Assembly: GCA_964561475.1 (NCBI GenBank)
Contig: CAZLPU010000019.1
Span: forward strand, 1,354 to 65,353
DNA from: an uncultured Alphaproteobacteria bacterium
GTDB taxonomy: Bacteria; Pseudomonadota; Alphaproteobacteria; JAJFIK01
Length of the DNA stretch: 64,000 nucleotides
Direction: 5' to 3'
In this document: piece after piece, positions 31,747 to 46,628 of the stretch
Layout of the letters: each line of letters starts with the position of its first letter
Numbering within the stretch: position 1 is the stretch's first letter
Program-made: the position numbers and the translations under genes
Notes under the pieces: model-generated
What the model saw: the letters and a program-made list of their open reading frames with translations, nothing else
Database searches by the model: none
What the model was told of the DNA's origin: nothing

Positions 31747-34278
31747 TCAGTCGCCGCCTTGGGGAATGAAGAAGAAGCTGCCGTAGTCGTGACGGGCGGC
31801 GGTGATTTCCTGGAAGGTCGGCTGCTGGGCGGAGCCCGACACGGTGGAGGTGTCATTGAACACCGCTTCCCGGACCACAGGGGCCACATCCTCGATGCTC
31901 AGAATACGCCCTTCCGCGATGCGCAGGATACGCATGAAGTTTTCCGTGAACACCGAGTGGCGTTCCGAGCCCCCATCAAGAACCGGACGGTTGCCGCCGG
32001 AGGTGAGCACCAGACGCGACCGGCGCCGGGCCCGGTCCCGGTACCATTCCGTCAGGCGGCGGCCCTGGGCGGCACTGCGGGGCGACACCAGACGGGTGGG
32101 ATCGCCCGTGCCTGCGTAACAGGAATCCACCACCAGCAGCACCTGGCTTGCATCGATCGCACCCAGAATTTCCGAAATCTGCCGGGAGTCAATCCATTCG
32201 GATTTGGCGCTCTCCCCCTGGCCCGCTTCCGCCGGTACCCAATAGGTGGTGCTCGCATCATCCTTGTCGTACATGCCGTGGCCGGCATAAAACACCAGCA
32301 GGTGGTCCCGGCGCTGGAGCCTCTCCCGATAACTGTCCAGGGCCCGGAGGATTTCCAGCTTGGTGGCATCCCGCAAGGGCGTGACCTCGAAGCCGAACTC
32401 CTCGCGCAGCATATCGCCCACGGCCTCCGCATCCCGCAAGGCCGACGGCAGGGTTTCCCACTGGGCGTAGCTGCTGTTGCCGATCACCAGGGCGTGGTAG
32501 GTGCCAAAATCGATGTTGGAGAGATCGCCTACACGGGGCCCACGGACAACCTCGAGGACCGGTGCGGCGTCCTCGTCCCCTCCGCCCGCGGAAAGCTGAC
32601 CGTTGGAGCGCCAGACCAGAACACCGCGCCGGTTTTGATTGTCGATGGCCGCGATTTCCACCACATCATCGGCGCTCACCAGACCGACCCGTTCATCAAA
32701 CCGTCCGTCATCGGCGATATCGACGGGCTGATCGTTGATGGTGAGCAGAACAAGGTTATCCCGGCTGAACACCCGGCCTTTCAGGCGCACAAAGAAGGAT
32801 ACGGAGGTATCCGCACCGCGGAACACCCGCTTGGTGGGGCCTTCCACACTGAGAATGGTGATCTGGGGCGCGGACAGGGTCTCAATTTCCCGGTTAAGGT
32901 CCGCCAGTTCCTGTTCATAAGCGGCAACCCGGCCCCGCTCGGACGCAATGGTCTGCTCCAGCTCCTCCATCTTGCGGCGCGCGTCCGCAAGGCGGCGTTC
33001 CGCTTCTGCCAGCCGGGCCCGCATGGCTTCCAGTTCTTCCCGGCTGTTTTCCAGGGCCAGGCGGTTGGCATCCCGCTCTTCCGCCGCCGTACGCAGATCG
33101 TCTTCGAGGGAAGTGATCCGGGCCTCCCGCTCCACAAGAGCGGTCTGCAAACGGGCAATTTCCCCCGCCTTCTGCTCCACACTCTGGCGGCGTTCCTCCA
33201 CGGCGCGGGTCAGAGAGGCGACCCGGTCCTGAAGGGTGCGGATTTCAGCGCTGCTGCCTTGGGCACCCGCCTGGGCCGCTGATCGGGCTGCTTCCAGGGC
33301 GGCTTTGGCGGCAGCCAGCGCCACCTGGGTCTCGTTGTAGCGTTTCCGCTCCTCCGCCAACTGATCCTGGAGAGATGTGAGAGACTGACGGGCGTCGTCC
33401 CGCTCTGCCCGGAGCCGGACCAGGGCAGCGTCCCGGTCGGCAATCCGGGCCTCAAGAGCCGCGATGCGCTCACGGAGCTTTTCCGTCTCGCCGGACTGCT
33501 CCAGGGCCAGCGCCTCATCCACAATGCGGATCTGCTGGTCGTGGTTCGTTAGCCGCTGGCGCAGTCCTGCTGCCTCTTTTTCCAATGTGTCGAGACGGGT
33601 TTCCGCCTCAACCCGGCGACTTTCAGCGGTCTCCCGGGCCTTCTCCGAGGCTCTGAGCTGGTCGCGCACCGTGGAGACTTCCTTGCGCAGACGCTCGATC
33701 TCCTGTTCGAGAACGGCAATTCGCTGTTCTTCCTTGGACTGAAAAACAAGATCACCCAGACCGGTCGCCTTGCGGTACCAGAAAAGCGCCTGTTCGGAAT
33801 CCTGCTCCACACCCCGGCCCAATTCGTAAAGCCGCCCCAGACGGAGCATCGCCGTGGTGTCGCCCTTGTCGGCCGCCCGGCGGTACCATTTCGCCGCTTC
33901 GGCATAATCCTCGAAGGTGTCTTCGTAAAGCTCGCCTACGGTGCGGATCGCTTCCGGATCCCCTTTCTCCGCCTGGGTCTTCCAGGCCTGAAGCACCTCC
34001 CGGTAGCTCCCCGGATCGCTGGCGATGAACCGTCCGCCCCGGATGGCGCAATCCCGCTGGGACGTCTTGATCACCCGTCCGGGGATCATCCGGGTCTGAC
34101 GCTGCCCGATCTGACGGACACGGGGAGGAAGCTGGCAGGTGACGATCAAATATTGATCAGCAGGCGCAGCACTCGCTGCCCCGGGTACCGAGACGACCGC
34201 CGCCGGGGTCGCCACCAGTCCCGCCAGAAAGAAAAGAGACCAAAGAAAACGGTGTTTTTTGCTTTGCCGGTTGGACAT
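31747..34278 (-). CDS. secreted Sel1-repeat / long coiled-coil / caspase-like (peptidase C14) protein
   Basis: Signal peptide. Sel1 repeats (AAKWYRRAADKGDTTAM, ALFWYRKATGLGD). About 300-aa heptad coiled coil. C-terminal caspase domain with dyad LLVFYAGHG ... LLVVDSCYAG. Confidence 0.8.
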   Translation of the reverse strand: MSNRQSKKHRFLWSLFFLAGLVATPAAVVSVPGAASAAPADQYLIVTCQLPPRVRQIGQRQTRMIPGRVIKTSQRDCAIRGGRFIASDPGSYREVLQAWKTQAEKGDPEAIRTVGELYEDTFEDYAEAAKWYRRAADKGDTTAMLRLGRLYELGRGVEQDSEQALFWYRKATGLGDLVFQSKEEQRIAVLEQEIERLRKEVSTVRDQLRASEKARETAESRRVEAETRLDTLEKEAAGLRQRLTNHDQQIRIVDEALALEQSGETEKLRERIAALEARIADRDAALVRLRAERDDARQSLTSLQDQLAEERKRYNETQVALAAAKAALEAARSAAQAGAQGSSAEIRTLQDRVASLTRAVEERRQSVEQKAGEIARLQTALVEREARITSLEDDLRTAAEERDANRLALENSREELEAMRARLAEAERRLADARRKMEELEQTIASERGRVAAYEQELADLNREIETLSAPQITILSVEGPTKRVFRGADTSVSFFVRLKGRVFSRDNLVLLTINDQPVDIADDGRFDERVGLVSADDVVEIAAIDNQNRRGVLVWRSNGQLSAGGGDEDAAPVLEVVRGPRVGDLSNIDFGTYHALVIGNSSYAQWETLPSALRDAEAVGDMLREEFGFEVTPLRDATKLEILRALDSYRERLQRRDHLLVFYAGHGMYDKDDASTTYWVPAEAGQGESAKSEWIDSRQISEILGAIDASQVLLVVDSCYAGTGDPTRLVSPRSAAQGRRLTEWYRDRARRRSRLVLTSGGNRPVLDGGSERHSVFTENFMRILRIAEGRILSIEDVAPVVREAVFNDTSTVSGSAQQPTFQEITAARHDYGSFFFIPQGGD

Positions 34279-34426
34279 GCCGCACCTGTTTTTTTTAAGG
34301 AGGGTCAGATATCGCGTTTCCGAACGAAAAGAAGGCGCCTCGTTGTACCACGAGCGCCTTCCCCTCATTCATACCAATCATTCACGAACCAGCCCGGGCA
34401 TTCAAGAAGCAGATTGGGCTGCTGGC

Positions 34427-34480
34427 CCCAAGGTTCAAAACCCAAGGTTCAAAACCCACGGTTCAAAACCCATGGTTCAC
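34427..34480. repeat. 3.9 copies of a 14-bp tandem repeat (CCCAAGGTTCAAAA) between autotransporter stop and Sel1-caspase gene
   Basis: Direct reading: cccaaggttcaaaa / cccaaggttcaaaa / cccacggttcaaaa / cccatggttcac. Each unit contains GGTT-N-AACC inverted arms. Confidence 0.8.
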
Positions 34481-35946
34481 AGATTGAATGGCACCCGGAT
34501 TTCAGCGCTCACCGCGTGGCTGCTCAGACGATCGAGCCCCAGAACGGTGCCGTAATCAAGGGCTACATCGAAACGGTCCATGACATTGCCGGACACGCCG
34601 AAGCCGACAACAAAGCTGCTCCGGTCCGGCTCGTCGGTGATGAAGGTCCCGAAATCGCCGGCGGTGGAGGAGACACCAGACTGGGCCGTGTACTGAGCGC
34701 GCAGGGCCCGGCTGTCGTCGCTGAATTCCCGGACCCATTCACCCCGGGCATGCACCACAAGGATCGCAAAAGGGCCGTAGCCGGAGGCGTAGACCTTCGA
34801 GCCATGGGCGCCGACGGCCAGCTTCACCGATGTGATTTCCTGATCGCCGAAGGTGATGTTCAGACCCTGGGCCCCGGTTTCCCCGTAGCCGTCAATGTCT
34901 GCATTCACATAGTCCAGCCGCAGGGACGGCCCGAAATAAGTGGCCTTCGCAATCCGGAAATCGTAATCGGCGCCGACACTGACGGCGATGGTGTTCCCGT
35001 CGGTCTCCCCGTTCGCCGTCCGGCGCAACTGGCTGCCGCCGTTCAGGTTCAGGTCGAAGATGTTGATGCGCCGGTTCGTTTCGAAATCAGCGGCGGAGTA
35101 CTGGAACATGCCGTAGACGGAGAGCGCTTCGATCCGCGCGGGCTGATAGTACGCATACAGGGTGCCGGTCAACGCGTCCGTGTTGAACTCACCGCCGGCG
35201 GAGGCAGAATCCGCGCCCAGATCGGTGAAATCGGAGGACAACTGGCTGTAACCGAAGGACGCGCCGAGCCAGACGCCGCCATTGAAGGCGTAGTCCACAC
35301 CGGCGGTAATGGCGAAACCGTCGAACTCGAACCCGTTTTCCAGGCGGCTGCGCTCATAATCGCCGAAGAAGAAGCTGCCGTTCAGGAAGGCGCCCCACCG
35401 GCTGATGCCCAGGTCTTCGAATGCATCATCCTGGGCAGCGGCGGCCGCCGCACCGGCCACGAGGAAGCTCATGGGCTGGGCGTCGGACTGGATCTGACCG
35501 GATGCGGCCAAAGCCCGGCCGGTGTCCGCGCCCGGAGCGCTGGCAATCCCGGTCACGGAGCGGATCTGCTGGATCCGGGAATAGACATTGGTGAACTGCT
35601 GGGTGTTCAGTTCCGTGAGGCTGGAGCCCTGGGCGCTGAACTCTTCCGGCGCCACCTGCTCGAAGCCGTTGGAACCGCCCTGACGAAGCAGGGAGTTGCA
35701 GCGCTGGAACAGGTCCTCTTCATCGGAACTCAGCCCGCCACCGCCGCTCAAGGCTGCCAGATCCGGACAAATGGCCTGGACGAGCTGGCGCATTTCGCCG
35801 GTATTGCCGTCCTCGGAAAATCCGTTCGTCTCCTGAGCGGACACCGGTGCCGCCAGAGCGAAACACGCGGCGGCGAATGTGACCGCCGCGCCCCGTGTGC
35901 GCTGCGGCATGCCGTTGATCAGCTTCACATGCTTACTGAAAATCAT
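34477..35946 (-). CDS. autotransporter-type outer membrane beta-barrel protein (short passenger)
   Basis: Signal peptide MIFSKHVKLINGMPQRTRGAAVTFAAACFALAAPVSA. C-terminal ~280 aa have alternating beta-strand pattern rich in G/Y/F (GAFLNGSFFFGDYERS...GVDYAFNGGVWLGASFGY). Confidence 0.6.
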   Translation of the reverse strand: MIFSKHVKLINGMPQRTRGAAVTFAAACFALAAPVSAQETNGFSEDGNTGEMRQLVQAICPDLAALSGGGGLSSDEEDLFQRCNSLLRQGGSNGFEQVAPEEFSAQGSSLTELNTQQFTNVYSRIQQIRSVTGIASAPGADTGRALAASGQIQSDAQPMSFLVAGAAAAAAQDDAFEDLGISRWGAFLNGSFFFGDYERSRLENGFEFDGFAITAGVDYAFNGGVWLGASFGYSQLSSDFTDLGADSASAGGEFNTDALTGTLYAYYQPARIEALSVYGMFQYSAADFETNRRINIFDLNLNGGSQLRRTANGETDGNTIAVSVGADYDFRIAKATYFGPSLRLDYVNADIDGYGETGAQGLNITFGDQEITSVKLAVGAHGSKVYASGYGPFAILVVHARGEWVREFSDDSRALRAQYTAQSGVSSTAGDFGTFITDEPDRSSFVVGFGVSGNVMDRFDVALDYGTVLGLDRLSSHAVSAEIRVPFNL

Positions 35947-36310
35947 GGCCCCTCTACCCTTGCTCCCCATGCGCGCTATGCACGTCTTAATACTACTCTG
36001 AACGCTGCGGCATTATGGATAAGTGTGCAGTACCGGGTCAAGCCCGAGAAGAGTGTCATGATGAAGACTGTATTGGCGCGCGGATCAAGGTCTCAGCGCG
36101 GTCGAACCCACTGACATTGCCATAAGCTCATGTGATGGCCCGTTGAATCCATTTTCCAGGTATGGCCCGCTGACGAACACGGGGGCGGAGCAGAAAAAGA
36201 ATACAATCCAACCTGGGGGTTATAGTTTTCAGACCGTTGCCTGATCGATACATCACAAGCCGGGTCCCATGGCCCCTTATCCCGCTTTCCAAACCAGATG
36301 AGGCCGTCCC

Positions 36311-38005
36311 ATGCGCACCAAGACCATCTCAGGACCCGACCGCTTCCCCGATGGAGCGGAGCAGGTCAGCGGGACCATCATCATCCGGTTTGTCTCCCTT
36401 TTGATCCTGGCGGTGACCATCCTGGCGCTGTCCCGCGGCGCACCGGCCCTCGCCAATGAAGGGGCCGCATACGGCGGTGCCCAGGACAGGGACATAGACC
36501 GGGAGCGGGACCGGGAGCGCATCGCCCTGGTCATCGGCAACAGCAATTACCGGGATGCGCCCCTGGCCAATCCCATCCAGGATGCCCGGGTGATGAAAGA
36601 GGCCCTGGAGAAAGTGGGGTTCCAGGTCAATCTGCTGATTGATGAAGACCAGAAGACCATCAAACGGGCGATCCAGCAGCTTGGCCAGGATCTCCGGGCG
36701 GCCTCGAAGGATGCCATCGGGTTCTTCTATTTCGCCGGTCACGGCATCCAGTCCAACGGGGTGAACTACCTTATTCCTCTGAATGCGGAAATCACCACGG
36801 AAGCGGACCTGGAGATCGAGGCCGTGGATGCCAACTGGGTGCTGCGCTACATGGAGCAGGCGGGCAATTCCATCAATTTCCTGGTGCTGGATGCCTGCCG
36901 GAACAATCCGCTGGAACGCTCTTTCCGCAGCGCCACCAGGGGGCTTGCCCGGATGCGCGCGCCCACGGGCAGCGTGATCGTCTATGCCACCCGTCCCGGC
37001 GATGTGGCCCTTGATGACAGCGACTTCGCCGGCGCCCTGGCCGAAGAAATCCAAAAGCCCGGCGTGGCCACGGAAGAAATGCTCCGCAATGTGGGTGCCA
37101 AGGTCTATGAGACGACCCGGGGCCGCCAGCAGCCTTATGTGGAATCCTCCCTGATCGTACCGTTCTATTTCGCCGGCCCGCCGGAAGAGACCACCACGCG
37201 CCCGGCGGAACCGGAAATCGACTACCGGGTGGGCATGACGTTCCGGGATTGTCCGAACTGCCTGGAAATGGTCGTGCTGCCGGCGGGACGCTTCACCATG
37301 GGCGCGGCCCCGGACGAACAGGGGGCGACGGGCTGGGAACAGCCCACACGGATCGTCACCCTGTCCGAGAAGATCGCTATGTCGAAATACGAGGTCACCT
37401 GGGATCACTGGGACCGGTGCGTTGCGGACGGGTTTTGCCGACGGATCGCCAACGGACCGGTGCGGGATCAGGCTGCCCATCCGGTCAGCACGGTCCGGTG
37501 GCGGGACATCACCGGGCAAGGTGCTCAGTACAGGGGCTTTCTGGAATGGCTGAACGCGGCCCTTGAGGACAAGCCCTACCGTCTGCCCAGCGAGGCCGAA
37601 TGGGAATACGCCGCCCGCGCCGGCGCCCAGAGCCGGTTTGCCTGGGGGGATGAAGACCCGGTCTGCCTCACCGACGCAGCGAATGGGGCGGCCTTCAGCG
37701 CCTGCCAGCATAGCCGGCCCATTGAGGTCGGCCGGTTCCAGCCCAATGGCTTCGGTCTCTACGACATGCACGGCAATGTTGAGGAGTGGGTGCAGGATTG
37801 CTGGCACCCCTCCTACCGGGGTGCACCCCGGAACGGTTCCGCCTGGATGGGTGCCTCCGGGGGCGAATGCTCCCGGGCCGTGGTGCGGGGCGGCGCCTGG
37901 AACCACACCCCTGCCCTCCTGCGCTCGGCGGACCGCAACTGGGCGGAACGGGGGGCGGCCTATGACAGTCTGGGTTTCCGGGTGGTGCGGGACCTGCCCC
38001 GCTAG
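36311..38005 (+). CDS. caspase-like (peptidase C14) domain fused to FGE-sulfatase (SUMF1-like) domain
   Basis: N-terminal TM/signal. Caspase dyad FFYFAGHG ... LVLDACRNNP. C-terminal FGE-sulfatase motifs RLPSEAEWEYAARAG, GLYDMHGNVEEWVQD, RVVRGGAW. The FGE catalytic Cys pair is absent. Confidence 0.8.
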   Translation: MRTKTISGPDRFPDGAEQVSGTIIIRFVSLLILAVTILALSRGAPALANEGAAYGGAQDRDIDRERDRERIALVIGNSNYRDAPLANPIQDARVMKEALEKVGFQVNLLIDEDQKTIKRAIQQLGQDLRAASKDAIGFFYFAGHGIQSNGVNYLIPLNAEITTEADLEIEAVDANWVLRYMEQAGNSINFLVLDACRNNPLERSFRSATRGLARMRAPTGSVIVYATRPGDVALDDSDFAGALAEEIQKPGVATEEMLRNVGAKVYETTRGRQQPYVESSLIVPFYFAGPPEETTTRPAEPEIDYRVGMTFRDCPNCLEMVVLPAGRFTMGAAPDEQGATGWEQPTRIVTLSEKIAMSKYEVTWDHWDRCVADGFCRRIANGPVRDQAAHPVSTVRWRDITGQGAQYRGFLEWLNAALEDKPYRLPSEAEWEYAARAGAQSRFAWGDEDPVCLTDAANGAAFSACQHSRPIEVGRFQPNGFGLYDMHGNVEEWVQDCWHPSYRGAPRNGSAWMGASGGECSRAVVRGGAWNHTPALLRSADRNWAERGAAYDSLGFRVVRDLPR

Positions 38006-38064
38006 GACACGGACTCGGTGCCATGCTCCGCACACCACATTCACGGCCCTATTGACGGCCACAC

Positions 38065-39531
38065 TTACGGTTTGGGACGCACACTGTAGTCCTGGGAGGC
38101 CAGTGACCAGGCGATGGGCCGATTGCGGTCTCCGCCGCGCCAAACATCGGAAAGGGCCTTGACCACCTTGGCCAGTTCCGCCTGCCCGTTCTCGGCGACC
38201 TTGAACGGTTCATCCCCTTCCGGATCAAGCAGGGCACCGAAATCAACCTCGTCCTCGGTCAGGATGGCAATGACCTGGCCCTGGCCGTAGGGCTCACCGG
38301 CCACGAACTCGAAACCGTAGAAGGGTTCCGGGAAGGTGATGGTTTCGCCCGCGGCAATCCGGCTGGTGCGATCCTCCCGGTTCAAAAGCCCGTTGGGAAA
38401 GATCTGGGTCAGTGTTCCGTCCGGGGCATAATCCAGCAAAATGAGCCAGCCCGCCTTTTGGGTGGAGACCCGCATCCGGATCACCTCTCCGGCCCGATAA
38501 TCCGGCCCTGCCATTGTTTCAACCGTGAGCCCCGCCGCATTGGAGGCCACCACAATATCCGTCACGTCGTTGACCGAGGCCAATCCTTCCTCGGTGAGAG
38601 TATCCGCCTGGGACGTATTTTCCTTGGACAGAAGCAGCGAACGCATGGCGTTGGCGGAGGCTTCCAGGGTGGGCGTGAACCCCAGGCCCAGGGTGCGGCA
38701 GGACTCGTTTTTCTGGCACCAGGCTTCGGTCTTCTCCCGGGAGTAGCGCAAGAGTTCGGCGGTGCTCACATGGCCGTTCAAATTGAAATCAGCCTTGAAA
38801 TCCCGCAGACCCTCCAGGAAATGCCGGGTGAAGATCCCCCGCCCGTTTTCCTCCCAGGACATTTGGAAGGAGGCCGCGGCGGTCCAGATCTGATGCTCTT
38901 CCTCCCCGAATGCGAAACTTTCCTCGCTCCGGAATGCGGTCACCGTATCCGGCGCCACGTCCCGGGCCTCCCCGAACAGGGTACGCGGACGGGCATCTGA
39001 CGTTTCGGAGACGGACAAACCGATAGAACGGGAAATGGTGCCTGAATGGCAGGCGTCCACAATGAGAATGACCCTCCGGCCCTTCAGCTTCTTGAGGGTG
39101 GCGTAGATGTCATCATCGAGGATCTGACGGGGCTGGCGGCCTGCCTCGAAATCGTAAGGGACCAGGGTCTCATCAAGCCCGTCCGTTTCATCGTCATTCC
39201 TGTCGCGAACCTGTGATCCGTGTCCGGCATAATAGATCACCACCCGGTCACCGGGGTTGGTCTGGCGCACGAGGCCGTTCAGGGCAGCCCTGATGGAACT
39301 GCGCCGGGCCCGCCGGTTGATGAGCCGTTTCACTTCATCCTGCTTGAAACCCCACTGACTGATGAGAAAGTCATAGACTTCTTCGGCATCGTTTTTGGGG
39401 CCCATGAGCGGGGTCACCGCCTTGTACTCGGCAATGCCGATGACCAGCGCCCTCTGGCCTGCATGGCCCGTTCCTCCGAGGAACCACAATGTGACAGCAC
39501 ATATCGTCAGAGCAAGGACCAAACGGGCCAT
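38065..39531 (-). CDS. secreted caspase-like (peptidase C14) protein with DUF4384-like C-terminal domain
   Basis: Signal peptide. Dyad VVIYYAGHGSQ ... LIVDACHSGT. C-terminal beta-rich domain of the kind found after bacterial caspase domains. Confidence 0.8.
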   Translation of the reverse strand: MARLVLALTICAVTLWFLGGTGHAGQRALVIGIAEYKAVTPLMGPKNDAEEVYDFLISQWGFKQDEVKRLINRRARRSSIRAALNGLVRQTNPGDRVVIYYAGHGSQVRDRNDDETDGLDETLVPYDFEAGRQPRQILDDDIYATLKKLKGRRVILIVDACHSGTISRSIGLSVSETSDARPRTLFGEARDVAPDTVTAFRSEESFAFGEEEHQIWTAAASFQMSWEENGRGIFTRHFLEGLRDFKADFNLNGHVSTAELLRYSREKTEAWCQKNESCRTLGLGFTPTLEASANAMRSLLLSKENTSQADTLTEEGLASVNDVTDIVVASNAAGLTVETMAGPDYRAGEVIRMRVSTQKAGWLILLDYAPDGTLTQIFPNGLLNREDRTSRIAAGETITFPEPFYGFEFVAGEPYGQGQVIAILTEDEVDFGALLDPEGDEPFKVAENGQAELAKVVKALSDVWRGGDRNRPIAWSLASQDYSVRPKP

Positions 39532-41168
39532 CAGGGCCTCCCCGGTTGATAGGTGGTGAAGGCGAGAACACCCAGCCTGTGGGGCATGTCCTCCAATGCT
39601 GCGATCAGGAGCGAGCGCAGATCCTCCAGCCTCTTAGTGTCGTGCAATCTGGCGAATTGGGCGCCCATGGGTCCCATGCCGGGACCTGCGGCAATGGCAA
39701 TGAGGTGGTCAGCGCCGAAAGGAGGCACCACCTCGATATCATCCAGACTGAACCCGCTGCCGATCACGGATCCAAGGCTCTCGATCACCTGAATGGTGCC
39801 GTCGGAGGCCAGATTGATCAGGGCAAGGTGTTTTTCCTCCAGACCCTGCACATTGACGGTCACTTGATCCTTGTGGAAATAAAGGCTTTTGCGAGGCCTC
39901 AGACGCATCTCCACCGTCCGCCCCAGGGCCGACAGGATGATATCCTCGACAAGCTGCCATTTTTCGATGACCGACTGGAGATCTTCAGGTTTGTCCGGGC
40001 GGATCGTGGCGATTACATCCCCATTGGACACCACCGCACCCGTGGCGGTATCCCAGATGAGATCGGCGGTGGTGATATCGTCAATGAGCCGCGCCAGGGG
40101 AATGCGGGCGGCCGCGTCCGGCGGAACCTCCGAGCCCAGAATGTAGAGGGTCACCGGTCTGGGCTGGGAAATGGGTTGGGGCCGGGCGGTGCCCGCGCGC
40201 AACACAGCCTGCCCCCGCAACACGGGCTGGAGGTCGAGCCGGGGCAATTGCCGCCCGCTTGAGACCATACGGACGGTTTCCAGAACGAAGGCGCGGATTT
40301 CGCTCGTGGTCAGAATGCCGTCCTGGTCCTGGTCCGCCTGCCCCCTCAAGGCCCGGGCAAAGGCCCAACTCAGTGCCCCTCTGATTTCACCGTCGATTTT
40401 GAGTTCCGGGGAAAGCTCATCATCCTGAACGGCGGCCAGGTGGAAGACATGGCTGAGATCCACGATATCGCCATCTCCACCGACCGGCTCTGGACGCTCC
40501 AGGTCGTCCACGGGAATGTCCCCGTAATCGGTGTAGCGGGAGGCCAGCCTGGGCGCGCGGGGATCAAATCTGCGGGTCAGGGTGCCGGAATGGCAACTGT
40601 CCGTCACCAGAATGACAAACCGGTCCTTTGCCCGGATGAGCATCTGAAAAATGTCATTATCGACGATCCGTTCCCGGCTGGTCACACCCTCCCCGGCCAA
40701 TGGCGAAAAGGCCGCCAGCAGAAGGGTTTCATCCCGGCCATCGACCTCCTCACCCTTGTAGAACTCCGGTTCCTGGCCGCCATGCCCGGCATAGGAGAAG
40801 ATGATCGTGTCACCGGGACTGGAAGCCTCGAGAAGATCGTCCCAGGCCTGAAGAATGGCATCCCTGGTGGCGTTATGGTTCAACAGAAGGACCGTCTTCC
40901 GGGCGCCGATTTCCGCAAGGGAGGCGGCGATATCCTCCGCGTCCCGGACAGCACCGGCGAGGGGTTCCAGGACTGCATAATCGTCAATGCCGACCACCAG
41001 ACCGAAGGTCTCGCTGCGGTGAGCCTCTTCCCTTTGATTGTCACTTCTGGCCGGTCCCGGCGCAATCACGATAGCGAGGAGAAGCGCCAGAACCCAGGAA
41101 GACCACCCTGAAGAACCTGTGACCATGCTTTTCATCCATACACCTGTCCGTGTGCCCCTCATCAGCAA
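39531..41168 (-). CDS. secreted caspase-like (peptidase C14) protein with EF-hand insertion and DUF4384-like C-terminal domain
   Basis: Probable start at Met 41135 (MKSMVTGSS...signal). Dyad IIFSYAGHGGQ ... ILVTDSCHSGT. EF-hand loop DQDQDGILTTSEI. Overlaps the OmpA-like gene start by 7 bp and abuts the downstream caspase gene. Confidence 0.8.
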   Translation of the reverse strand: MLMRGTRTGVWMKSMVTGSSGWSSWVLALLLAIVIAPGPARSDNQREEAHRSETFGLVVGIDDYAVLEPLAGAVRDAEDIAASLAEIGARKTVLLLNHNATRDAILQAWDDLLEASSPGDTIIFSYAGHGGQEPEFYKGEEVDGRDETLLLAAFSPLAGEGVTSRERIVDNDIFQMLIRAKDRFVILVTDSCHSGTLTRRFDPRAPRLASRYTDYGDIPVDDLERPEPVGGDGDIVDLSHVFHLAAVQDDELSPELKIDGEIRGALSWAFARALRGQADQDQDGILTTSEIRAFVLETVRMVSSGRQLPRLDLQPVLRGQAVLRAGTARPQPISQPRPVTLYILGSEVPPDAAARIPLARLIDDITTADLIWDTATGAVVSNGDVIATIRPDKPEDLQSVIEKWQLVEDIILSALGRTVEMRLRPRKSLYFHKDQVTVNVQGLEEKHLALINLASDGTIQVIESLGSVIGSGFSLDDIEVVPPFGADHLIAIAAGPGMGPMGAQFARLHDTKRLEDLRSLLIAALEDMPHRLGVLAFTTYQPGRP

Positions 41169-42120
41169 TCCTGCCGTCCGTAACAGATCTCCACTCGACG
41201 GTCCATGCGCAGCCGTTCCTCCCGGGAGTAGCGGTCGGGATTGTCCGGCTGATAGGGTTCGGTCTCGCCTTTGCCGGTGACCGTAATCGCGCCCGTATAG
41301 CCCTTGTCCTTCAGGAAATCAGCCACGGTCCGGGCCCGTCGGATTGAGAGGGTCATGTTGTAGCCTGCGGGTCCGGAACTGTCGGAATGGCCGATCAGGG
41401 TAATGTCCGGCGTCCCGATCAGGCGCAGATTGATGAAGAGCTGCTCAGCATTCCTCAGGCTGACCCCGGTCAATTGTCTTGAGTTGCTGCCGAACCGAAT
41501 GGGAACGGCCACCCGGCGGATCTTGATCCCCCGCACCTGGGGGGCGCCCAGTCCGGTGGGGCGCCCTCCCCTGGTGGGTGTCGCCACGAAGTCCGGTGCG
41601 AGCAGGCGGGCCGTTTCGGCGTTTTTCATCAATCTGCGGACGATTTCCTCGCTGGGCCCCGGTTCCGGGGTCAAATCCGGATTGTCCACGGCATCGAGGG
41701 CCTGTTCGAAATGGAACTGGGCCGCGCCATAGTCCTTGCGGTCCAGGGCAATTTCGCCAAGAGTGGCGGAAATCTGCCACAGTCTTGCATAGGTCAGGGT
41801 TTCTTCAAGATAATCCGCATACCGCTCCCGCGGTTTACCGGCGCGAATCTCCGTCAGAACCTTCTGATAGCGCAGGGCAGCCACCCGCTTGCCCAAGTCC
41901 CGGACGAATGACGATGAGCAGGTCTCATCCCTGAGGGCCTCTTCATACAAGACCTCGAGTGCCGCCACATCCCGATCCCGCAAGGCCCGCTGGGCCTCCT
42001 CAAACAGCACCGCGCAATTGCGGATCTCCTGCGCCCTGGTCTGGGACGGTGCAGCGATCACGGCGCTCAATATTGCGCCCCCGAGCAGGATGGCTCCAGT
42101 CAAGATCCTCATCATGACCA
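41162..42120 (-). CDS. OmpA-family protein (TPR-like N-terminal region, OmpA C-terminal peptidoglycan-binding domain)
   Basis: Signal peptide MVMMRILTGAILLGGAILSAVIAAPSQTRA. C-terminal OmpA motif GHSDSSGPAGYNMTLSIRRARTVADFL. The annotated ORF extends to 42778, but the upstream part is Pro/Gly/Arg low complexity. Confidence 0.7.
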
Positions 42121-42174
42121 TTCTCCCATTCGGTGCCCCGTTCAGCCGGCCTTTGGGACCGGCCCCATGTCCCC

Positions 42175-43902
42175 TCAGACGGACCACTGGTCCAGCCAGG
42201 ATCGGTCCAGTCCATGTTTCCCATAATAGGCCTCGAGACGCTGGCGGTTCTTGCGCCCTTGAGACAGACCAAGATAATCGACCGCATTGTGGTGGAGCAA
42301 TTTGCGGAAGTCTTCCATGCTCCGGCCGGTGCTCTGGAAATGGCTGGTCAGGGCCGGGATGTAGGTTTCGTGGTCGGATTCCCGGCCCACCATGATCCAG
42401 TCGGTACCGAAGAGCAGCCGGTTCGCCGCATTGGGATAGTTCGTATAGAATGCAGATAACTGAGCGGCCAGGTCCCGTTTGCGCCGGGCTGGGAATTCCC
42501 TGGAGAACACGCTCTCCAGATAGCTGAGATCGGAATAGACCCGGGCCACATCCTCCCGTTCCATCATTTCTCCGACGGTGAATTCCCACGGCTTGCCCGG
42601 CGGGTTCCGGAAGGCCTCCTGAAAATCGCCGAAATGCCCCATATTGATGCGCAGTTTCGGATAGCGGGTGATCACCGGCTCCCAGAACCGGGGATGGGCG
42701 CGCCGGGCGAATGCGTCGCCCGCGCCCTGGCTGTCGTTGGTGTGGGTGATGATAGGTACTTCGTGCTCGGAGCACCATTCATAAAGCCGTCTCAGGGCCT
42801 CATCGATCCGCTGGGGGAAGCGGTCATGGGCCTGGGCCCGTTCCGGATAACAGACCGTTCCGTTCTGATTGCCCCAGGGATAAAATCCCATGGGCGGGTA
42901 GAGTTTGACGCCGACAAACCCGCGGTTCATGACCGCGTCTTCGACCATGGGCATCGCCTCGCCGGTGGCCAGTTCCCGCCAAGGGCAGAACGGCACCATG
43001 GTATGCATCCGCGCCCCCGACTCCTCGGCCACCCAGCGCTGGAGCCGGTCCATCAGGACAATCTGATCCGCCAGGGACGAGCGGGGCCGGTCATCGAGCC
43101 AGTAATCGAAATCCACGAGAAAGGGGGTGAACAGACGGACACCATCTGTCCGCCCATAGAGTTTGAGATACTCGCCAATGATCTGCCTGCGGGGTTTCAG
43201 CAGGAGAAGACCCCAACGCAAGGTATTGCTTATGGTCCCACGGGCGGCCAGCGCGCCTTCCGCAAGCCGACCCAGATCCTGATCGGTCATGCCGTCCAGG
43301 CTGCGGGCCATGGCGGTCTGGCCCGTCTCCCTGCGAAGGTCATCCAGAAAATCCTCAGCTCCCGGATCCCGGGCCAGAGCATCGTTTGACTCTCTGGGGC
43401 TTTCCGGCGAACCGGTCCGTGTGCTGCGGGCCCGCTCCTGGGCACCGGCCAGAACGGATTTGAGAATGTCGACGTCGCTTTCGCTCGTGGTCTCCACCCG
43501 GGCCCCGTTCAACCGGGCCAGTTCCTGGGCGGCGGTGAGCGAACGCCTGGACAACAGATCCACCAGCGCCCGGCCCACTCCGCCGAATACGGAGCGCCTC
43601 GCCTGGGCAAAGCAATAGGGATCCTCGAAATCCTCAAAAACCACCCGGCGCACAAATCCGCCGACGGGCAGGTCCGAGGCATTGAAGACGTGGGCGTGAA
43701 CGTCGATGGGAAAGGATGTTCCCTGTGCCTGTTGAACCCGGGAAATGTCCGGCGGTGCCGGAGTGCAATTGGTCAGCCCCAGGAGTGCAAACCCGGTCAT
43801 GCCCGTGAGAACGGATCGACGGTCCCGCAACGGATGGCCCCCGCTTCCAACCCCTGGAAATCCGTCCCCGCTGTAATTTTTGTCCGGTCTCGTCTTGGCC
43901 AT
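42175..43902 (-). CDS. TAT-exported amidohydrolase-2 family metal-dependent hydrolase
   Basis: Twin-arginine leader RDRRSVLTGMTGFALLGL. HxH start of the TIM barrel (IDVHAHVF). Conserved late Asp (LLFGTDW). Confidence 0.65.
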   Translation of the reverse strand: MAKTRPDKNYSGDGFPGVGSGGHPLRDRRSVLTGMTGFALLGLTNCTPAPPDISRVQQAQGTSFPIDVHAHVFNASDLPVGGFVRRVVFEDFEDPYCFAQARRSVFGGVGRALVDLLSRRSLTAAQELARLNGARVETTSESDVDILKSVLAGAQERARSTRTGSPESPRESNDALARDPGAEDFLDDLRRETGQTAMARSLDGMTDQDLGRLAEGALAARGTISNTLRWGLLLLKPRRQIIGEYLKLYGRTDGVRLFTPFLVDFDYWLDDRPRSSLADQIVLMDRLQRWVAEESGARMHTMVPFCPWRELATGEAMPMVEDAVMNRGFVGVKLYPPMGFYPWGNQNGTVCYPERAQAHDRFPQRIDEALRRLYEWCSEHEVPIITHTNDSQGAGDAFARRAHPRFWEPVITRYPKLRINMGHFGDFQEAFRNPPGKPWEFTVGEMMEREDVARVYSDLSYLESVFSREFPARRKRDLAAQLSAFYTNYPNAANRLLFGTDWIMVGRESDHETYIPALTSHFQSTGRSMEDFRKLLHHNAVDYLGLSQGRKNRQRLEAYYGKHGLDRSWLDQWSV

Positions 43903-44423
43903 ACCACCCCCCCTGCCCGGCTTCTGTCCGAGGAAGCTGGCACACCCGGTAAGGATGATCAAGCAGCCTGATGTACCTATGCTTGTCACTATACGCGCTG
44001 CGTGCGGACCGCCTCCCTGGCCTTGAGCACGATCACTTGGAGCCTCCAGCGCAGACGGGCTCCGGACACATCAGTCTTGCGCTTGAAACAAGCGTTATCT
44101 CAAAGACTTGGAGAATGTTGCCGATCCCTTGGATGGATGCTTCCGCCCCAGTGTAGACCTACGGGCCAGGTCTTGGTGCCTTGTCGCGATACGGATGGGA
44201 GGTTTCGTCAAGGGTGTGTCGGCGCTGTCACGCACCCAGATTGCTCCCTGTTGGTGGTGCACAGGATTGATGTTGCAAAGGGGGTGAGAGCAGGACCGAC
44301 GCAGTGCCAGCCCATACCGGGCCATCCAAGACCTCGACCAGAACGCACGACAGTATCGAAAAACCGGAAACCCTTCCGGAGGACCATACCCGATGTGGCG
44401 GAGACACGCCCCTCGCCCCGGCC

Positions 44424-44684: not shown

Positions 44685-46628
44685 ATGATGGCCAGCCTGC
44701 CAGCAACACGTCCCATTATCGGCACCAACACTGACGATCTCATCCACGGCAGTAAGCACTCGGATGTCATGTCCGGCCGGGCGGGGGACGACACCCTGAC
44801 CGGTCAGAACGGCAATGACGAAGTCTGGGGCGGCAGCGGTGATGACAGCCTTCACGGTAACAATGGTCATGACATCCTCTACGGTTCCGGCGGCCCGAGC
44901 CTCGTGCAGGTCACGGGTATCCAGATCAAGGATGATTACCCGGTGTCGGTCGTGTTCGAGGGCGAGACCGCCGGGTACCGGAACACCTTCGGCTACTACA
45001 AAATCGACGAGGATGGCGGCATTTATGATGTCGAGTTCATCTGGGAAAATGCCTCACTCCAAGGCAGTGGCGGGTCCCTGATTCAAGGAGAGAGCCGCGA
45101 GTATCTGGACGTTGCCCCGGGAGAGACCATCGCGTTCTTCATCATCTCCAACGGCTACAACCTCAACAATCAGTACCGGAACATTAATCTTGAGACTGGC
45201 ACTCTCGCCTTTCTGAATTCCGACGGCACCCAGGCGACCATCAACAGCAAGGCCCCCCGGCTCTATCACATCGCGGAGGATGGCACGCAAACTCTCGTCC
45301 AGATCAATCCCTACCATACCGCCGCCTACGGAGAGACCGTTGGCCTCAACCCGGACAGCATTCTCCATACCACCGGTGTTTTCAAGGCGGACAAGGGCAC
45401 GATTACCCTTGGTTTTGAGGATCTTTACGGCGGTGGCGACCGGGACTTCGATGATAGTGTCTTCACGGTTGATATTGGCACAGTGAACGCAAATGTACTC
45501 AACGCCCACTACCGCACCCAGCAGAAAGGTGAAACTGTCAATCGTGGCGAGGGGATAGACCGGCCCGTGGTGGTCACGTCCGACAATGACACCCTCCATG
45601 GCGGCACAGGCAGCGACGAGCTCCATGGCCGTTCCGGTCATGATCTTCTGTTTGGAGACAATGGTGATGATGACCTCCACGGAGGCAGCGGCTCAGACAC
45701 TCTGGACGGTGGCTCCGGTCACGATGAACTCTTTGGCAATTCGGGAAATGACGTGCTCAAGGGGTGGATGGGCAATGATGAACTCTCAGGAAACTCCGGT
45801 GACGATACACTTCACGGCGAACGGGGAGAGGACACTCTCTATGGCGGTTCAGGTCATGATGTCCTGAATGGCGGCGAGGACAACGACCTGCTGAACGGCG
45901 GCAGCGGCGATGACCATCTGGATGGTGGTTACGGGTCGGATGTTCTGAAGGGTGGTGGCGGCGCCGACACTCTCACCGGCGGCAATGGGGACGACCGGCT
46001 TTATGGCGGCCACGATGACGATACCTTCCTTGGTGATGCCGGTAACGACTATTTCCACGGCGGTAAGGGTCTGAACACTGTCGACTACAGCGACTTTGAC
46101 GATGGCGTCCGCTTGTCCCTTCACAACAAGACCGCCCACGGAACAGGCCTCGGTCGCGACAGTCTGTTTCATATCCAACGGGCCATCACCGGCGATGGCG
46201 ACGATCTTCTCAAAGGATCCGCCAGGGATGACATCCTGGAAGCTGGCGGCGGTAACGACGATCTGCGGGGCCTGATCGGTGCCGACACCATGACCGGCGG
46301 TGCGGGTGAAGACCGGTTCATCTGGCGCAAGCACGATCTCAACGCCCTGGACGTCATCACGGATTTCAATTTCGATGAGGATGTTATCGACTTCACCGCA
46401 CTGGGTCTTGCCGGCGACACCCTCACGTCCACAGGGAGCCAGATCATCCATCAAAATGGGAGCTACGAGATCAATGATGCCATACTGCTCTCCCAACTGG
46501 ATGGCTCACTGATCCTCAGTGTCGATCTGAATAAGGGGTCAGGGGACTACACTGACGTCTGTGAACTTGAGAATGCGGCATCCTTCTTCACGCTGGAAGA
46601 GCCGGGCTTCGACTGGCTGCACTACTAA
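44685..46628 (+). CDS. secreted calcium-binding protein with DUF4114 domain and hemolysin-type (RTX) nonapeptide repeats
   Basis: N-terminal and C-terminal runs of GGxGxDxL(x) repeats (GGSGDDSLHGNNGHDILYG; GGSGSDTLDGGSGHDELFG, etc.). Central DUF4114-like segment (FEGETAGYRNTFGYY...GFEDLYGGGDRDFDDSVF). No signal peptide, as expected for a type I secretion substrate. Confidence 0.8.
   Translation: MMASLPATRPIIGTNTDDLIHGSKHSDVMSGRAGDDTLTGQNGNDEVWGGSGDDSLHGNNGHDILYGSGGPSLVQVTGIQIKDDYPVSVVFEGETAGYRNTFGYYKIDEDGGIYDVEFIWENASLQGSGGSLIQGESREYLDVAPGETIAFFIISNGYNLNNQYRNINLETGTLAFLNSDGTQATINSKAPRLYHIAEDGTQTLVQINPYHTAAYGETVGLNPDSILHTTGVFKADKGTITLGFEDLYGGGDRDFDDSVFTVDIGTVNANVLNAHYRTQQKGETVNRGEGIDRPVVVTSDNDTLHGGTGSDELHGRSGHDLLFGDNGDDDLHGGSGSDTLDGGSGHDELFGNSGNDVLKGWMGNDELSGNSGDDTLHGERGEDTLYGGSGHDVLNGGEDNDLLNGGSGDDHLDGGYGSDVLKGGGGADTLTGGNGDDRLYGGHDDDTFLGDAGNDYFHGGKGLNTVDYSDFDDGVRLSLHNKTAHGTGLGRDSLFHIQRAITGDGDDLLKGSARDDILEAGGGNDDLRGLIGADTMTGGAGEDRFIWRKHDLNALDVITDFNFDEDVIDFTALGLAGDTLTSTGSQIIHQNGSYEINDAILLSQLDGSLILSVDLNKGSGDYTDVCELENAASFFTLEEPGFDWLHY

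What the first reader, a model, noticed from the sequence alone, without database searches (positions are those of the whole stretch)
36311..38005. Caspase-like domain fused to an FGE-sulfatase-like domain that lacks the formylglycine-generating cysteine pair
The C-terminal half has the hallmark FGE/SUMF1 blocks (RLPSEAEWEYAARAG, GLYDMHGNVEEWVQD, RVVRGGAW). The segment after RGGAW (NHTPALLRSADRNW) has no cysteines where catalytic FGEs carry the redox-active Cys pair. The domain is therefore probably a non-catalytic ligand-binding or sensor module attached to a protease, giving a sensor-protease architecture.
Basis: partly seen in the sequence, partly recalled or inferred. Interest (0 to 1): 0.6.

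Follow-up and report, generated by a model that had tools for sequence, protein, structure and literature searches.

The report
Exported caspase-like protease with PvdO-like domain
This gene encodes a probably exported caspase-type protease joined to a formylglycine-enzyme-like domain that cannot make formylglycine and most likely acts as a binding module; the description is correct, but this design is very common in bacteria and was first reported in 2012.

Summary
ORF 36311-38005 (+), 564 aa, has a Peptidase_C14 domain (res 70-286, E 9e-33) and an FGE-sulfatase domain (res 319-560, E 4.5e-49). The caspase His144/Cys196 dyad is intact. The loop where human, Streptomyces and Thermomonospora FGEs carry the C-x4-C pair is 3 residues shorter and has no cysteine, so this is not a formylglycine-generating enzyme.

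- The FGE-like half is specifically PvdO-like (PDB 5hha, E 1e-45, TM 0.83).
- The protein has a signal-peptide-like N-terminus, as do 109 of its 120 best homologs, so it probably works in the periplasm or envelope.
- The architecture is not rare: 20,480 50%-identity clusters match at E<=1e-30, and the fusion was catalogued in 2012.

The loops that replace the FGE active site are among the most variable parts of the domain across the family. The same domain type also occurs as 10-11 tandem copies in giant proteins with FG-GAP repeats or a dockerin domain, and as 4 copies behind a TIR-STAND module. This favours a binding or targeting module over an enzyme. Ligand-triggered "sensing" is not shown. 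PvdO's genetic link to an oxidation step keeps a catalytic reading alive. No conserved gene partner was found.

Verdict: a real, ordinary new member of a known but functionally untested family.

The parts
36300..36303 (+). GAGG Shine-Dalgarno-like motif, 7 nt upstream of the ATG start
   Evidence: Read directly from the sequence.
36311..38005 (+). Complete gene, 564 aa plus stop: caspase-like protease fused to a PvdO-like FGE-fold domain
   Evidence: ORF list. GC3 0.80. The exact protein is on record in NCBI and Logan assemblies.
36311..36454 (+). Residues 1-48, a Sec-type signal-peptide-like N-terminus: the n-region ends at R26, the hydrophobic core is FVSLLILAVTILAL, and the c-region is SRGAPALA with a likely cut before NEG
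   Evidence: Sequence. The AF2 model has a helix at 20-42 and low-confidence flanks. 109 of 120 homologs have an N-terminal hydrophobic segment, often directly before the caspase domain. Cleavage and export are inferred; no signal-peptide predictor was available.
36518..37168 (+). Peptidase_C14 (caspase / orthocaspase, paracaspase-like) domain, residues 70-286
   Evidence: Pfam E 9.1e-33. Best solved relatives are MALT1 paracaspase chains, E about 2e-13. Foldseek gives TM 0.77 to the MALT1 caspase domain 3v4o.
36740..36742 (+). Catalytic His144 (FAGHG)
   Evidence: Aligns with the His of MALT1 YAGHG. His in 116 of 120 homologs.
36896..36898 (+). Catalytic Cys196 (LDACR). D194, two residues before it, together with D91 and D235, matches the acidic S1-pocket residues of MALT1
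   Evidence: Aligns with the Cys of MALT1 LDMCR. Cys in 117 of 120 homologs. D91, D194 and D235 are nearly invariant. The S1-pocket assignment (MALT1 D365/D462/E500) comes from my own knowledge of MALT1. The D235-E500 match is extrapolated one residue beyond the end of the alignment.
37169..37264 (+). Inter-domain linker (residues 287-318). It ends in a conserved C314-x-x-C317 motif
   Evidence: Low pLDDT around 291-300. C314 and C317 are each Cys in 113 of 120 homologs and co-occur. The same motif is in PvdO as KDCKDCPEM.
37265..37990 (+). FGE-sulfatase-fold domain, PvdO-like, residues 319-560
   Evidence: Pfam E 4.5e-49. NCBIfam PvdO model scores 196.8 bits, below its 500-bit cut-off. PDB PvdO 5hha matches at E 1.2e-45 over the whole domain. 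Foldseek gives TM 0.83 to 5hha and about 0.65 to true FGEs.
37895..37972 (+). Residues 529-554, the loop region that replaces the FGE catalytic Cys-x4-Cys / copper site. It has no cysteine, is 3 residues shorter than in FGEs, and is hypervariable in the family
   Evidence: Alignment A2. Verified FGE motifs. Column counts. Cys counts. Entropy profile.

Best explanation
The gene encodes a Sec-exported cysteine protease of the caspase superfamily (periplasmic or envelope-associated). It is an orthocaspase with paracaspase-like motifs.

The protease half keeps its His144/Cys196 dyad and an acidic S1 pocket, so it should cleave after Arg or Lys.

The C-terminal half is a PvdO-like member of the FGE / C-type-lectin fold. 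It has lost the copper-binding cysteine pair and cannot generate formylglycine. It most likely serves as a binding module that brings the protease to a ligand, substrate or envelope structure.

Shown here: domain identities, dyad, absence of the Cys pair, signal-like N-terminus, family-wide variability of the former active-site loops, and modular reuse of the domain.

Inferred: export, P1 specificity, the binding role, and the identity of the ligand (unknown).

It is a new member of a very large, previously catalogued, experimentally uncharacterised architecture family.
For: - Domain calls.
- PvdO is the best solved relative by sequence and by fold.
- The dyad aligns to MALT1 and is conserved in 116 and 117 of 120 homologs.
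- D91, D194 and D235 are nearly invariant.
- The catalytic Cys pair of three verified FGEs is absent here and replaced by a shorter loop. It is absent in 119 of 120 homologs, and none of 356 domain copies has a C-x4-C.
- Positions 531-533, 535-536 and 541-553 are among the most variable in the domain.
- The same domain type forms 10-11 tandem copies in giant proteins with FG-GAP repeats or a dockerin domain, and 4 copies behind TIR-nSTAND1. That is the behaviour of a binding module.
- Family members often add PG_binding_1, SH3_3 or PEGA domains, which fits an envelope location.
- The N-terminus is signal-like in 109 of 120 homologs.
- Eight cysteines, with conserved co-occurring pairs, fit disulfides in an oxidising compartment.
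- Precedents for non-enzymatic FGE-fold proteins: FGS domains as binders (PMC7159879), DGR-diversified CLec/FGE sensors fused to orthocaspases (PMC7517822; bioRxiv 10.1101/2023.09.22.558884), Tsi3 T6SS immunity proteins (bioRxiv 10.1101/2021.05.21.445229), and PorK among the PDB matches.
Against: - No ligand, substrate or activity has been measured for any member of this fusion family.
- PvdO, the nearest characterised relative, is genetically needed for oxidation of dihydropyoverdine (PMC6206403), so a PvdO-like domain may be catalytic in some way not yet understood.
- A conserved CxxC motif (C314/C317) shared with PvdO could be redox-active rather than structural.
- Export rests on a hand reading of the N-terminus, which has an unusually long n-region of about 25 residues.
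- No conserved neighbouring gene points to a pathway.
- Inter-domain geometry is uncertain (pTM 0.55).
Confidence: 0.6

Rival explanations
1. Bifunctional enzyme. The PvdO-like domain is a true periplasmic oxidoreductase acting on a small molecule or peptide-derived metabolite, as PvdO is proposed to act on dihydropyoverdine. The caspase domain performs a proteolytic step on the same substrate or pathway.
For: - PvdO is the closest relative.
- PvdO is required in vivo for the last oxidation of the pyoverdine fluorophore and is periplasmic (PMC6206403, PMC9305348).
- The CxxC and other cysteines are conserved between PvdO and this family.
- Asplund-Samuelsson et al. speculated about coupled proteolysis and modification (PMC3501461).
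Against: - The score is far below the PvdO equivalog cut-off (196.8 versus 500 bits).
- No pvd genes or NRPS genes were found among the window ORFs scanned.
- Purified PvdO has no cofactor and no activity in vitro (PMC6206403).
- The loops at the former active site vary freely across the family.
- The domain occurs in long tandem arrays, which is unusual for an enzyme.
- There is no conserved biosynthetic neighbourhood.
Confidence: 0.2
2. Part of an immune or conflict system of the caspase-plus-sensor type. The FGE-like domain is an antigen sensor, possibly diversified by a retroelement, and ligand binding triggers protease-mediated cell death or signalling.
For: - FGE/FGS domains serve as predicted sensors in STAND and vWA-MoxR systems and as DGR targets, some fused to orthocaspases (PMC7159879, PMC7517822, PMC13581612; bioRxiv 10.1101/2023.09.22.558884).
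- A TIR-nSTAND1-4xFGE protein is among the relatives.
- The PADLOC 'caspase' model hits the protease domain.
- Three more caspase-like genes lie next door.
Against: - The signal-like N-terminus places the protein outside the cytoplasm.
- No NTPase, vWA, MoxR, EAD or reverse-transcriptase match appeared in the ORFs scanned.
- No template repeat for the C-terminal region exists in the window.
- The PADLOC hit covers only the generic caspase domain.
- Gene neighbourhoods of homologs are unrelated housekeeping or mixed genes.
Confidence: 0.1
3. A genuine formylglycine-generating enzyme fused to a protease, with the catalytic cysteines relocated elsewhere in the domain.
For: - The Pfam family name, and JGI annotations of homologs as 'formylglycine-generating enzyme required for sulfatase activity'.
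- The domain holds eight cysteines.
Against: - The catalytic loop is shortened and Cys-free here and in the whole family.
- The conserved cysteines are shared with PvdO, which is not an FGE.
- The fold is nearer to PvdO than to FGEs (TM 0.83 versus about 0.65).
- No sulfatase gene turned up among the neighbouring ORFs scanned.
Confidence: 0.02

Closest known systems
PvdO of Pseudomonas aeruginosa (PDB 5hha), periplasmic pyoverdine maturation protein
   Same: - Best sequence match (E 1.2e-45 across the whole domain) and best fold match (TM 0.83, 37% identity).
- The same shortened, Cys-free loop in place of the FGE active site.
- Shared CxxC and DCW...C cysteines.
- Sec signal peptide and periplasmic location for PvdO (PMC9305348), and a signal-like N-terminus here.
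   Different: - PvdO is a stand-alone protein of about 285 aa encoded in the pvdMNO operon.
- This protein scores 196.8 bits against a 500-bit equivalog cut-off.
- It is fused to a protease.
- No pyoverdine genes were found among the window ORFs scanned.
Formylglycine-generating enzyme (human SUMF1; S. coelicolor and T. curvata FGE)
   Same: - Same fold (Foldseek E about 1e-16, TM about 0.65).
- The family signature blocks RLPSEAEWEYAARAG and DMHGNVEEW are present.
   Different: Lacks the C-x4-C copper-binding pair. The loop is 3 residues shorter. Only about 24-26% identity.
Orthocaspase/metacaspase-FGE-sulfatase fusions catalogued by Asplund-Samuelsson et al. 2012 (for example Microcystis MaOC4, Trichodesmium, Haliscomenobacter)
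   Same: Same two-domain order. FGE-sulfatase was the fifth most frequent partner of prokaryotic metacaspases, in 33 of 671 sequences (PMC3501461). MaOC4 is described in PMC5756287.
   Different: - This one belongs to a signal-peptide-bearing, PvdO-like group whose named homologs are Alphaproteobacteria.
- Some cyanobacterial versions are cytoplasmic or membrane-spanning, some lack the dyad, and some are DGR targets (PMC3501461, PMC7517822).
MALT1 paracaspase
   Same: - Best solved relative of the protease half.
- The His and Cys motifs (YAGHG/FAGHG, LDMCR/LDACR) and the three acidic S1 residues line up.
- It therefore probably works alike: Arg-directed cleavage, and possibly activation by dimerisation.
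   Different: MALT1 is a cytoplasmic eukaryotic signalling protease with death and Ig domains. Identity is only about 20%. There is no evidence here for scaffold-driven activation.
Non-enzymatic FGE-fold proteins: PorK/GldK (T9SS ring lipoprotein), TvpA (DGR variable protein, 2y3c), Tsi3 (T6SS immunity)
   Same: - FGE fold without the catalytic cysteines, used for protein or ligand binding in the envelope.
- PorK matches at E 1e-17 and TvpA at TM 0.67.
- Tsi3 was shown to bind its effector and to lack the FGE cysteines (bioRxiv 10.1101/2021.05.21.445229).
   Different: These are more distant in sequence than PvdO. None is fused to a protease. No lipobox, no DGR and no T6SS or T9SS genes were found here.

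Membership tests
Catalytic formylglycine-generating enzymes (SUMF1/FGE) | Two active-site cysteines (human C336 and C341, motif GGS[YF][LM]CHxSYCxRYR) that bind Cu(I) | tested here: not met
   The loop reads GGAWNHTPALLRSADR. It is 3 residues shorter and has no Cys between G528 and G555. The same holds in 119 of 120 homologs.
Catalytic formylglycine-generating enzymes (SUMF1/FGE) | FGE fold (Pfam PF03781) | tested here: met
   Pfam E 4.5e-49. Foldseek E about 1e-16 to several FGE structures.
Catalytic formylglycine-generating enzymes (SUMF1/FGE) | Converts Cys in a CxPxR motif of sulfatases to formylglycine, and is usually found with sulfatase genes | not testable with these tools
   The activity needs an assay. 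No sulfatase domain was found among the neighbouring ORFs scanned.
PvdO (dihydropyoverdine dehydrogenase, NCBIfam NF051459) | Score above the curated equivalog cut-off of 500 bits | tested here: not met
   196.8 bits.
PvdO (dihydropyoverdine dehydrogenase, NCBIfam NF051459) | Stand-alone periplasmic protein encoded with pvdM, pvdN and pvdP in a pyoverdine cluster | tested here: not met
   The domain is fused to a caspase domain. No pvd or NRPS genes were found among the window ORFs scanned. PvdO's gene context is described in PMC6206403.
PvdO-like subgroup of the FGE fold | Closest sequence and fold similarity to PvdO, including the Cys-free shortened loop and the shared CxxC and DCW..C cysteines | tested here: met
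   E 1.2e-45 over residues 2-254 of the domain query. TM 0.83. Alignment A2.
Peptidase family C14 (caspase superfamily; prokaryotic orthocaspases) | p20-type fold with a His-Cys catalytic dyad | tested here: met
   Pfam E 9.1e-33. His144 and Cys196 align with the MALT1 dyad and are conserved in homologs.
Peptidase family C14 (caspase superfamily; prokaryotic orthocaspases) | Cleavage after basic residues (acidic S1 pocket), as in metacaspases, paracaspases and orthocaspases | tested here: inconclusive
   D91, D194 and D235 sit at the positions of MALT1 D365, D462 and E500 (alignment, my own residue counting, one position extrapolated). They are nearly invariant. No enzymatic data exist.
DGR variable proteins with a C-terminal CLec/FGE domain | Variable repeat in the C-terminal part of the domain, with a matching template repeat and a reverse transcriptase nearby | tested here: not met
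   blastn of 37501-38005 against the window found only chance-level short matches. No reverse transcriptase was found among the ORFs scanned.
NTPase-centred conflict systems (STAND, vWA-MoxR ternary systems) with FGS sensors and caspase effectors | Linked NTPase, vWA or EAD components, and a cytoplasmic location | tested here: not met
   No such domains were found in the neighbouring ORFs scanned. The N-terminus is signal-like. PADLOC hits only a generic caspase model.

The most novel reading that the evidence does not exclude
The window's unusual cluster could form an envelope surveillance or remodelling system. The cluster holds four genes for caspase-like proteases with signal-like N-termini, each carrying a different accessory module: Sel1 plus coiled coil, a PvdO-like lectin fold, DUF4384, and an unassigned C-terminal region. 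An autotransporter beta-barrel gene and an OmpA-like gene lie in the same cluster.

In this reading it would be a periplasmic counterpart of the cytoplasmic caspase-based conflict systems. The hypervariable loops of the FGE-like domain would recognise a foreign or damage-derived ligand, such as a phage or T6SS component or a peptidoglycan fragment. Ligand binding would switch the protease on by induced proximity.
Probability: 0.1. Interest if true: 0.65.

Novelty: new member of a known kind. Interest (0 to 1): 0.25.

Why it matters
Prokaryotic caspase homologues are abundant, but almost none has a known substrate or role. The caspase-FGE-like fusion is one of their commonest architectures and is routinely mis-annotated as 'formylglycine-generating enzyme required for sulfatase activity' or 'nonheme iron enzyme'.

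Three points give a concrete, testable picture and correct that annotation:
- this group, whose named homologs are Alphaproteobacteria, is PvdO-like;
- it is probably exported;
- it has an active-looking protease next to a domain whose former active site is variable.

The picture to test is an Arg/Lys-directed envelope protease with a lectin-fold targeting domain.

It adds no new principle. The architecture, the loss of the cysteines in non-FGE members of the fold, and the binder interpretation are all in the literature.

Tried and rejected
- True FGE: rejected on the loop alignment.
- PvdO orthologue: rejected on the score cut-off and gene context.
- DGR target: no template repeat.
- Defence system: PADLOC gave only a generic caspase hit.
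- Conserved operon partners:
  - tblastn of 12 window neighbours against 81 related loci found nothing consistent.
  - Clustering 1196 ORFs from 88 loci gave no partner family shared widely.
  - Only 4 of 22 fusion-bearing loci have a second caspase gene nearby, and two of those four (L087, L088) carry the same protein.
  - Three Pfam-annotated neighbourhoods of homologs were unrelated to each other.
- Source organism: the only other record of this exact protein is a 2.3-kb Logan contig. The GTDB representative scan found only relatives of 45% identity or less. The cluster look-up gave no names. Named homologs are Alphaproteobacteria, so that origin is an inference.
Only Cys co-occurrence could be used.
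- The Ringel et al. 2018 PvdO paper (PMC5818194) is not held. I therefore could not map PvdO's reported essential glutamate onto this protein and make no claim about it.
- The afdb50 fold library was unavailable.
- The 604-aa antisense ORF 36329-38143 was dismissed as a high-GC artefact. The sense frame has GC3 0.80 and strong domain hits.
Full report

Yes. The ORF runs from 36311 to 38005 on the + strand and is 564 aa with the stop included. Its third-position GC is 0.80, as expected for a real gene in this window of about 62% GC. A GAGG motif lies 7 nt upstream of the ATG.

Pfam places a Peptidase_C14 domain at residues 70-286 (E 9.1e-33) and an FGE-sulfatase domain at 319-560 (E 4.5e-49).

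The quoted sequence blocks are present at 424-438, 482-496 and 531-544. One was slightly mis-copied: the sequence is AVVRGGAW, not RVVRGGAW.

The 604-aa ORF on the opposite strand (36329-38143) is the usual high-GC shadow.

**2. The protease half**

The best solved relatives are MALT1 paracaspase chains (E about 2e-13). The predicted structure matches the MALT1 caspase domain with TM 0.77.

FAGHG and LDACR align with MALT1 YAGHG and LDMCR. This makes His144 and Cys196 the dyad. They are His in 116 and Cys in 117 of the 120 best homologs.

I counted along the MALT1 chain from H415 and C464 (established knowledge). The acidic S1-pocket residues D365 and D462 fall on D91 and D194. E500 falls on D235, one residue beyond the end of the alignment. 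All three are nearly invariant in the family alignment. Cleavage after Arg or Lys, as in paracaspases, metacaspases and orthocaspases, is therefore the expected specificity. This is an inference.

**3. The FGE-like half**

I verified the catalytic motif of real FGEs against PDB chains:
- human: [20 protein letters not shown]. The C336S and C341S mutant entries 2aft and 2afy identify the two cysteines.
- S. coelicolor: GGSYLCHDSYCNRYR.
- T. curvata: GGSFLCHESYCNRYR.

The window protein reads GGAWNHTPALLRSADR. In the alignment it shares a 3-residue deletion over the first cysteine with PvdO and PorK, and it has P534 opposite the second. There is no cysteine anywhere between G528 and G555. The same is true of 119 of 120 homologs. 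No C-x4-C motif was found in 356 domain copies from 253 relatives.

The domain does hold eight other cysteines. C314/C317 (a CxxC just before the domain), C376, C497 and C520 are conserved. C314 and C317 appear and disappear together. C314/C317, C497 and C520 are also present in PvdO. They are best read as disulfides of an exported protein, not as a relocated FGE site. I could not measure distances, because model coordinates are not exposed.

The CxxC remains an open detail.

**4. What the domain is closest to**

The closest relative is PvdO, not FGE.
- The NCBIfam PvdO model is the top hit at 196.8 bits, well under its 500-bit equivalog cut-off.
- PDB 5hha matches at E 1.2e-45 over the full domain.
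- The AlphaFold model has mean pLDDT 86, both domains confident, and pTM 0.55, so the inter-domain pose is uncertain.
- The model superposes on 5hha with TM 0.83, against about 0.65 for true FGEs.

PvdO is a Sec-exported periplasmic protein (PMC9305348). It is needed in vivo for the last oxidation of the pyoverdine fluorophore, yet the purified protein has no detectable cofactor and no activity (PMC6206403).

The window protein is not a PvdO orthologue. It is fused to a protease, and no pyoverdine or NRPS genes were found among the window ORFs scanned.

**5. Location**

The N-terminus is MRTKTISGPDRFPDGAEQVSGTIIIR-FVSLLILAVTILAL-SRGAPALA|NEG. It has a positive end to the n-region, a 14-residue hydrophobic core and an A-x-A site. 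The model shows a lone helix at 20-42.

Of the 120 best homologs, 109 have an N-terminal hydrophobic segment. In many it is a textbook signal peptide placed directly before the caspase domain.

Family members frequently carry extra PG_binding_1, SH3_3 or PEGA domains.

The protein therefore most likely works in the periplasm or at the envelope.

**6. How common and how new**

The word-indexed search returned 7533 hits among the 8000 candidates scored. Nearly all of the best 120 carry both Pfam domains. Where they have names, these are 'SUMF1/EgtB/PvdO family nonheme iron enzyme' or 'formylglycine-generating enzyme required for sulfatase activity', from Alphaproteobacteria such as Defluviicoccus, Dongia, Rhodospirillaceae and Hyphomicrobiaceae.

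The exhaustive search of 1.84 billion cluster representatives found 20,480 proteins at E<=1e-30.

The best full-length relatives are about 38-47% identical, so this protein is a new sequence in an old family.

The fusion was reported in 2012 as the fifth most frequent partner of prokaryotic metacaspases, in 33 of 671 sequences. The authors then speculated about combined proteolysis and formylglycine modification (PMC3501461). It recurs in later orthocaspase reviews (PMC5756287).

**7. Binder or enzyme?**

Several lines favour a binding module.
- Across the family, the loops that replace the FGE active site (530-537 and 541-554) and an insert at 447-467 are the most variable stretches of the domain. 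The fold-signature blocks are almost invariant. A conserved catalytic centre would look the opposite.
- The same PvdO-like domain type is reused as 10 and 11 tandem copies in proteins of 3008 and 4448 aa, with FG-GAP repeats or a dockerin domain. It also occurs as four copies behind a TIR-nSTAND1 module.
- The three neighbouring caspase paralogues carry Sel1 repeats, DUF4384 or an unassigned domain. By analogy, the FGE-like domain plays the 'accessory' role in this protein.
- The literature treats Cys-less FGE/FGS domains as C-type-lectin-fold binders (PMC7159879, PMC13581612). Examples include DGR-diversified versions fused to orthocaspases (PMC7517822; bioRxiv 10.1101/2023.09.22.558884) and the T6SS immunity protein Tsi3 (bioRxiv 10.1101/2021.05.21.445229). 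PorK, a T9SS ring lipoprotein, is also among the PDB matches.

Against this stand the genetic evidence that PvdO is needed for an oxidation, and the conserved CxxC.

'Sensor' in the sense of ligand-triggered activation has no support either way.

**8. Context**

There is no conserved partner.
- The window's neighbours have no counterparts next to related genes.
- ORF clustering over 88 loci found no shared family beyond the gene itself.
- Only 4 of 22 fusion-bearing loci have another caspase gene nearby, and two of those four carry the same protein.
- Three annotated neighbourhoods are unrelated to one another. One lies among toxin-antitoxin genes, one beside ribosomal protein genes, and one beside a Sel1/SPOR protein and another caspase gene.
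- There is no template repeat for a DGR.
- PADLOC gives only a generic caspase hit.

The local four-caspase cluster is therefore a peculiarity of this genome, not a defining feature of the family.

**9. Verdict**

The most likely mechanism is an exported Arg/Lys-directed cysteine protease that is targeted by a PvdO-like lectin-fold domain to an unknown envelope ligand or substrate (confidence about 0.6).

Novelty is low. It is a new member of a known, abundant and experimentally uncharacterised architecture. Interest is 0.25.

Noticed in passing
window 31747-42778: The region holds a cluster of four caspase-domain genes, each with a hydrophobic, signal-like N-terminus and intact GHG / D[AS]C motifs. 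They are 31747-34368(-) with Sel1 repeats, a long coiled coil and a C-terminal C14 domain; 36311-38005(+) with C14 plus the FGE-like domain; 38065-39531(-) with C14 plus DUF4384; and 39531-41168(-) with C14 plus an unassigned C-terminal region. An autotransporter beta-domain gene and an OmpA-like gene lie among them. Such clustering is not typical of the family: only 4 of 22 related loci have a second caspase gene.
   Followed up: partly
window 38065-42121 (- strand): The OmpA-like gene, the 545-aa caspase gene and the 488-aa caspase-DUF4384 gene overlap at their junctions. Coordinates 41162-41168 overlap by 7 nt, and 39531 is shared by a stop and a start. This suggests one translationally coupled operon, convergent with the finding's gene, with only 59 bp between the two stop codons and no terminator-like hairpin.
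   Followed up: partly
window 41162-42778 (-): The listed 538-aa OmpA-like ORF is probably over-extended at its 5' end and overlaps the Amidohydro_2 gene (42175-43989). A start at about 42121 (MVMMRILTGAILLGG..., a signal-like sequence) would give a 319-aa protein.
   Followed up: partly
window 34477-35970 (-): A 497-aa protein has an autotransporter beta-barrel at residues 202-474 but only a very short passenger of about 150 residues. It is transcribed divergently from the finding's gene, and a sigma-70-like promoter match for it lies at 36041-36012.
   Followed up: no
window 37250-37261 (residues 314-317): A CxxC motif (DCPNC) sits just before the FGE-like domain. It is conserved in 113 of 120 homologs, the two cysteines co-occur, and the motif is also present in PvdO (KDCKDC). 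It could be a structural disulfide, or a redox-active pair relevant to PvdO's unexplained oxidase role.
   Followed up: partly
P0121, P0125, P0122 (relatives): Some giant proteins carry 10-11 tandem PvdO-like FGE domains with FG-GAP repeats or a dockerin domain. Another relative is a TIR-nSTAND1 protein with four such domains. The same domain subtype is therefore used both in surface-type repeat proteins and in NLR-like proteins.
   Followed up: partly
window 44685-46628 (+): This gene encodes an RTX calcium-binding repeat protein with 11 matched repeat stretches and a DUF4114 domain. It lies just downstream of the caspase cluster, in a part of the window with lower GC, about 0.56-0.59 from 44 kb onward.
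   Followed up: no
L085 5747-7745 (Dongia mobilis): Next to a homologous caspase-FGE gene lie an HvfC_N gene, an MbnB/TglH/ChrH (DUF692) gene and a small 88-aa ORF, which together look like a RiPP or metal-binding-peptide cassette. This was seen in one locus only, on the opposite strand.
   Followed up: no
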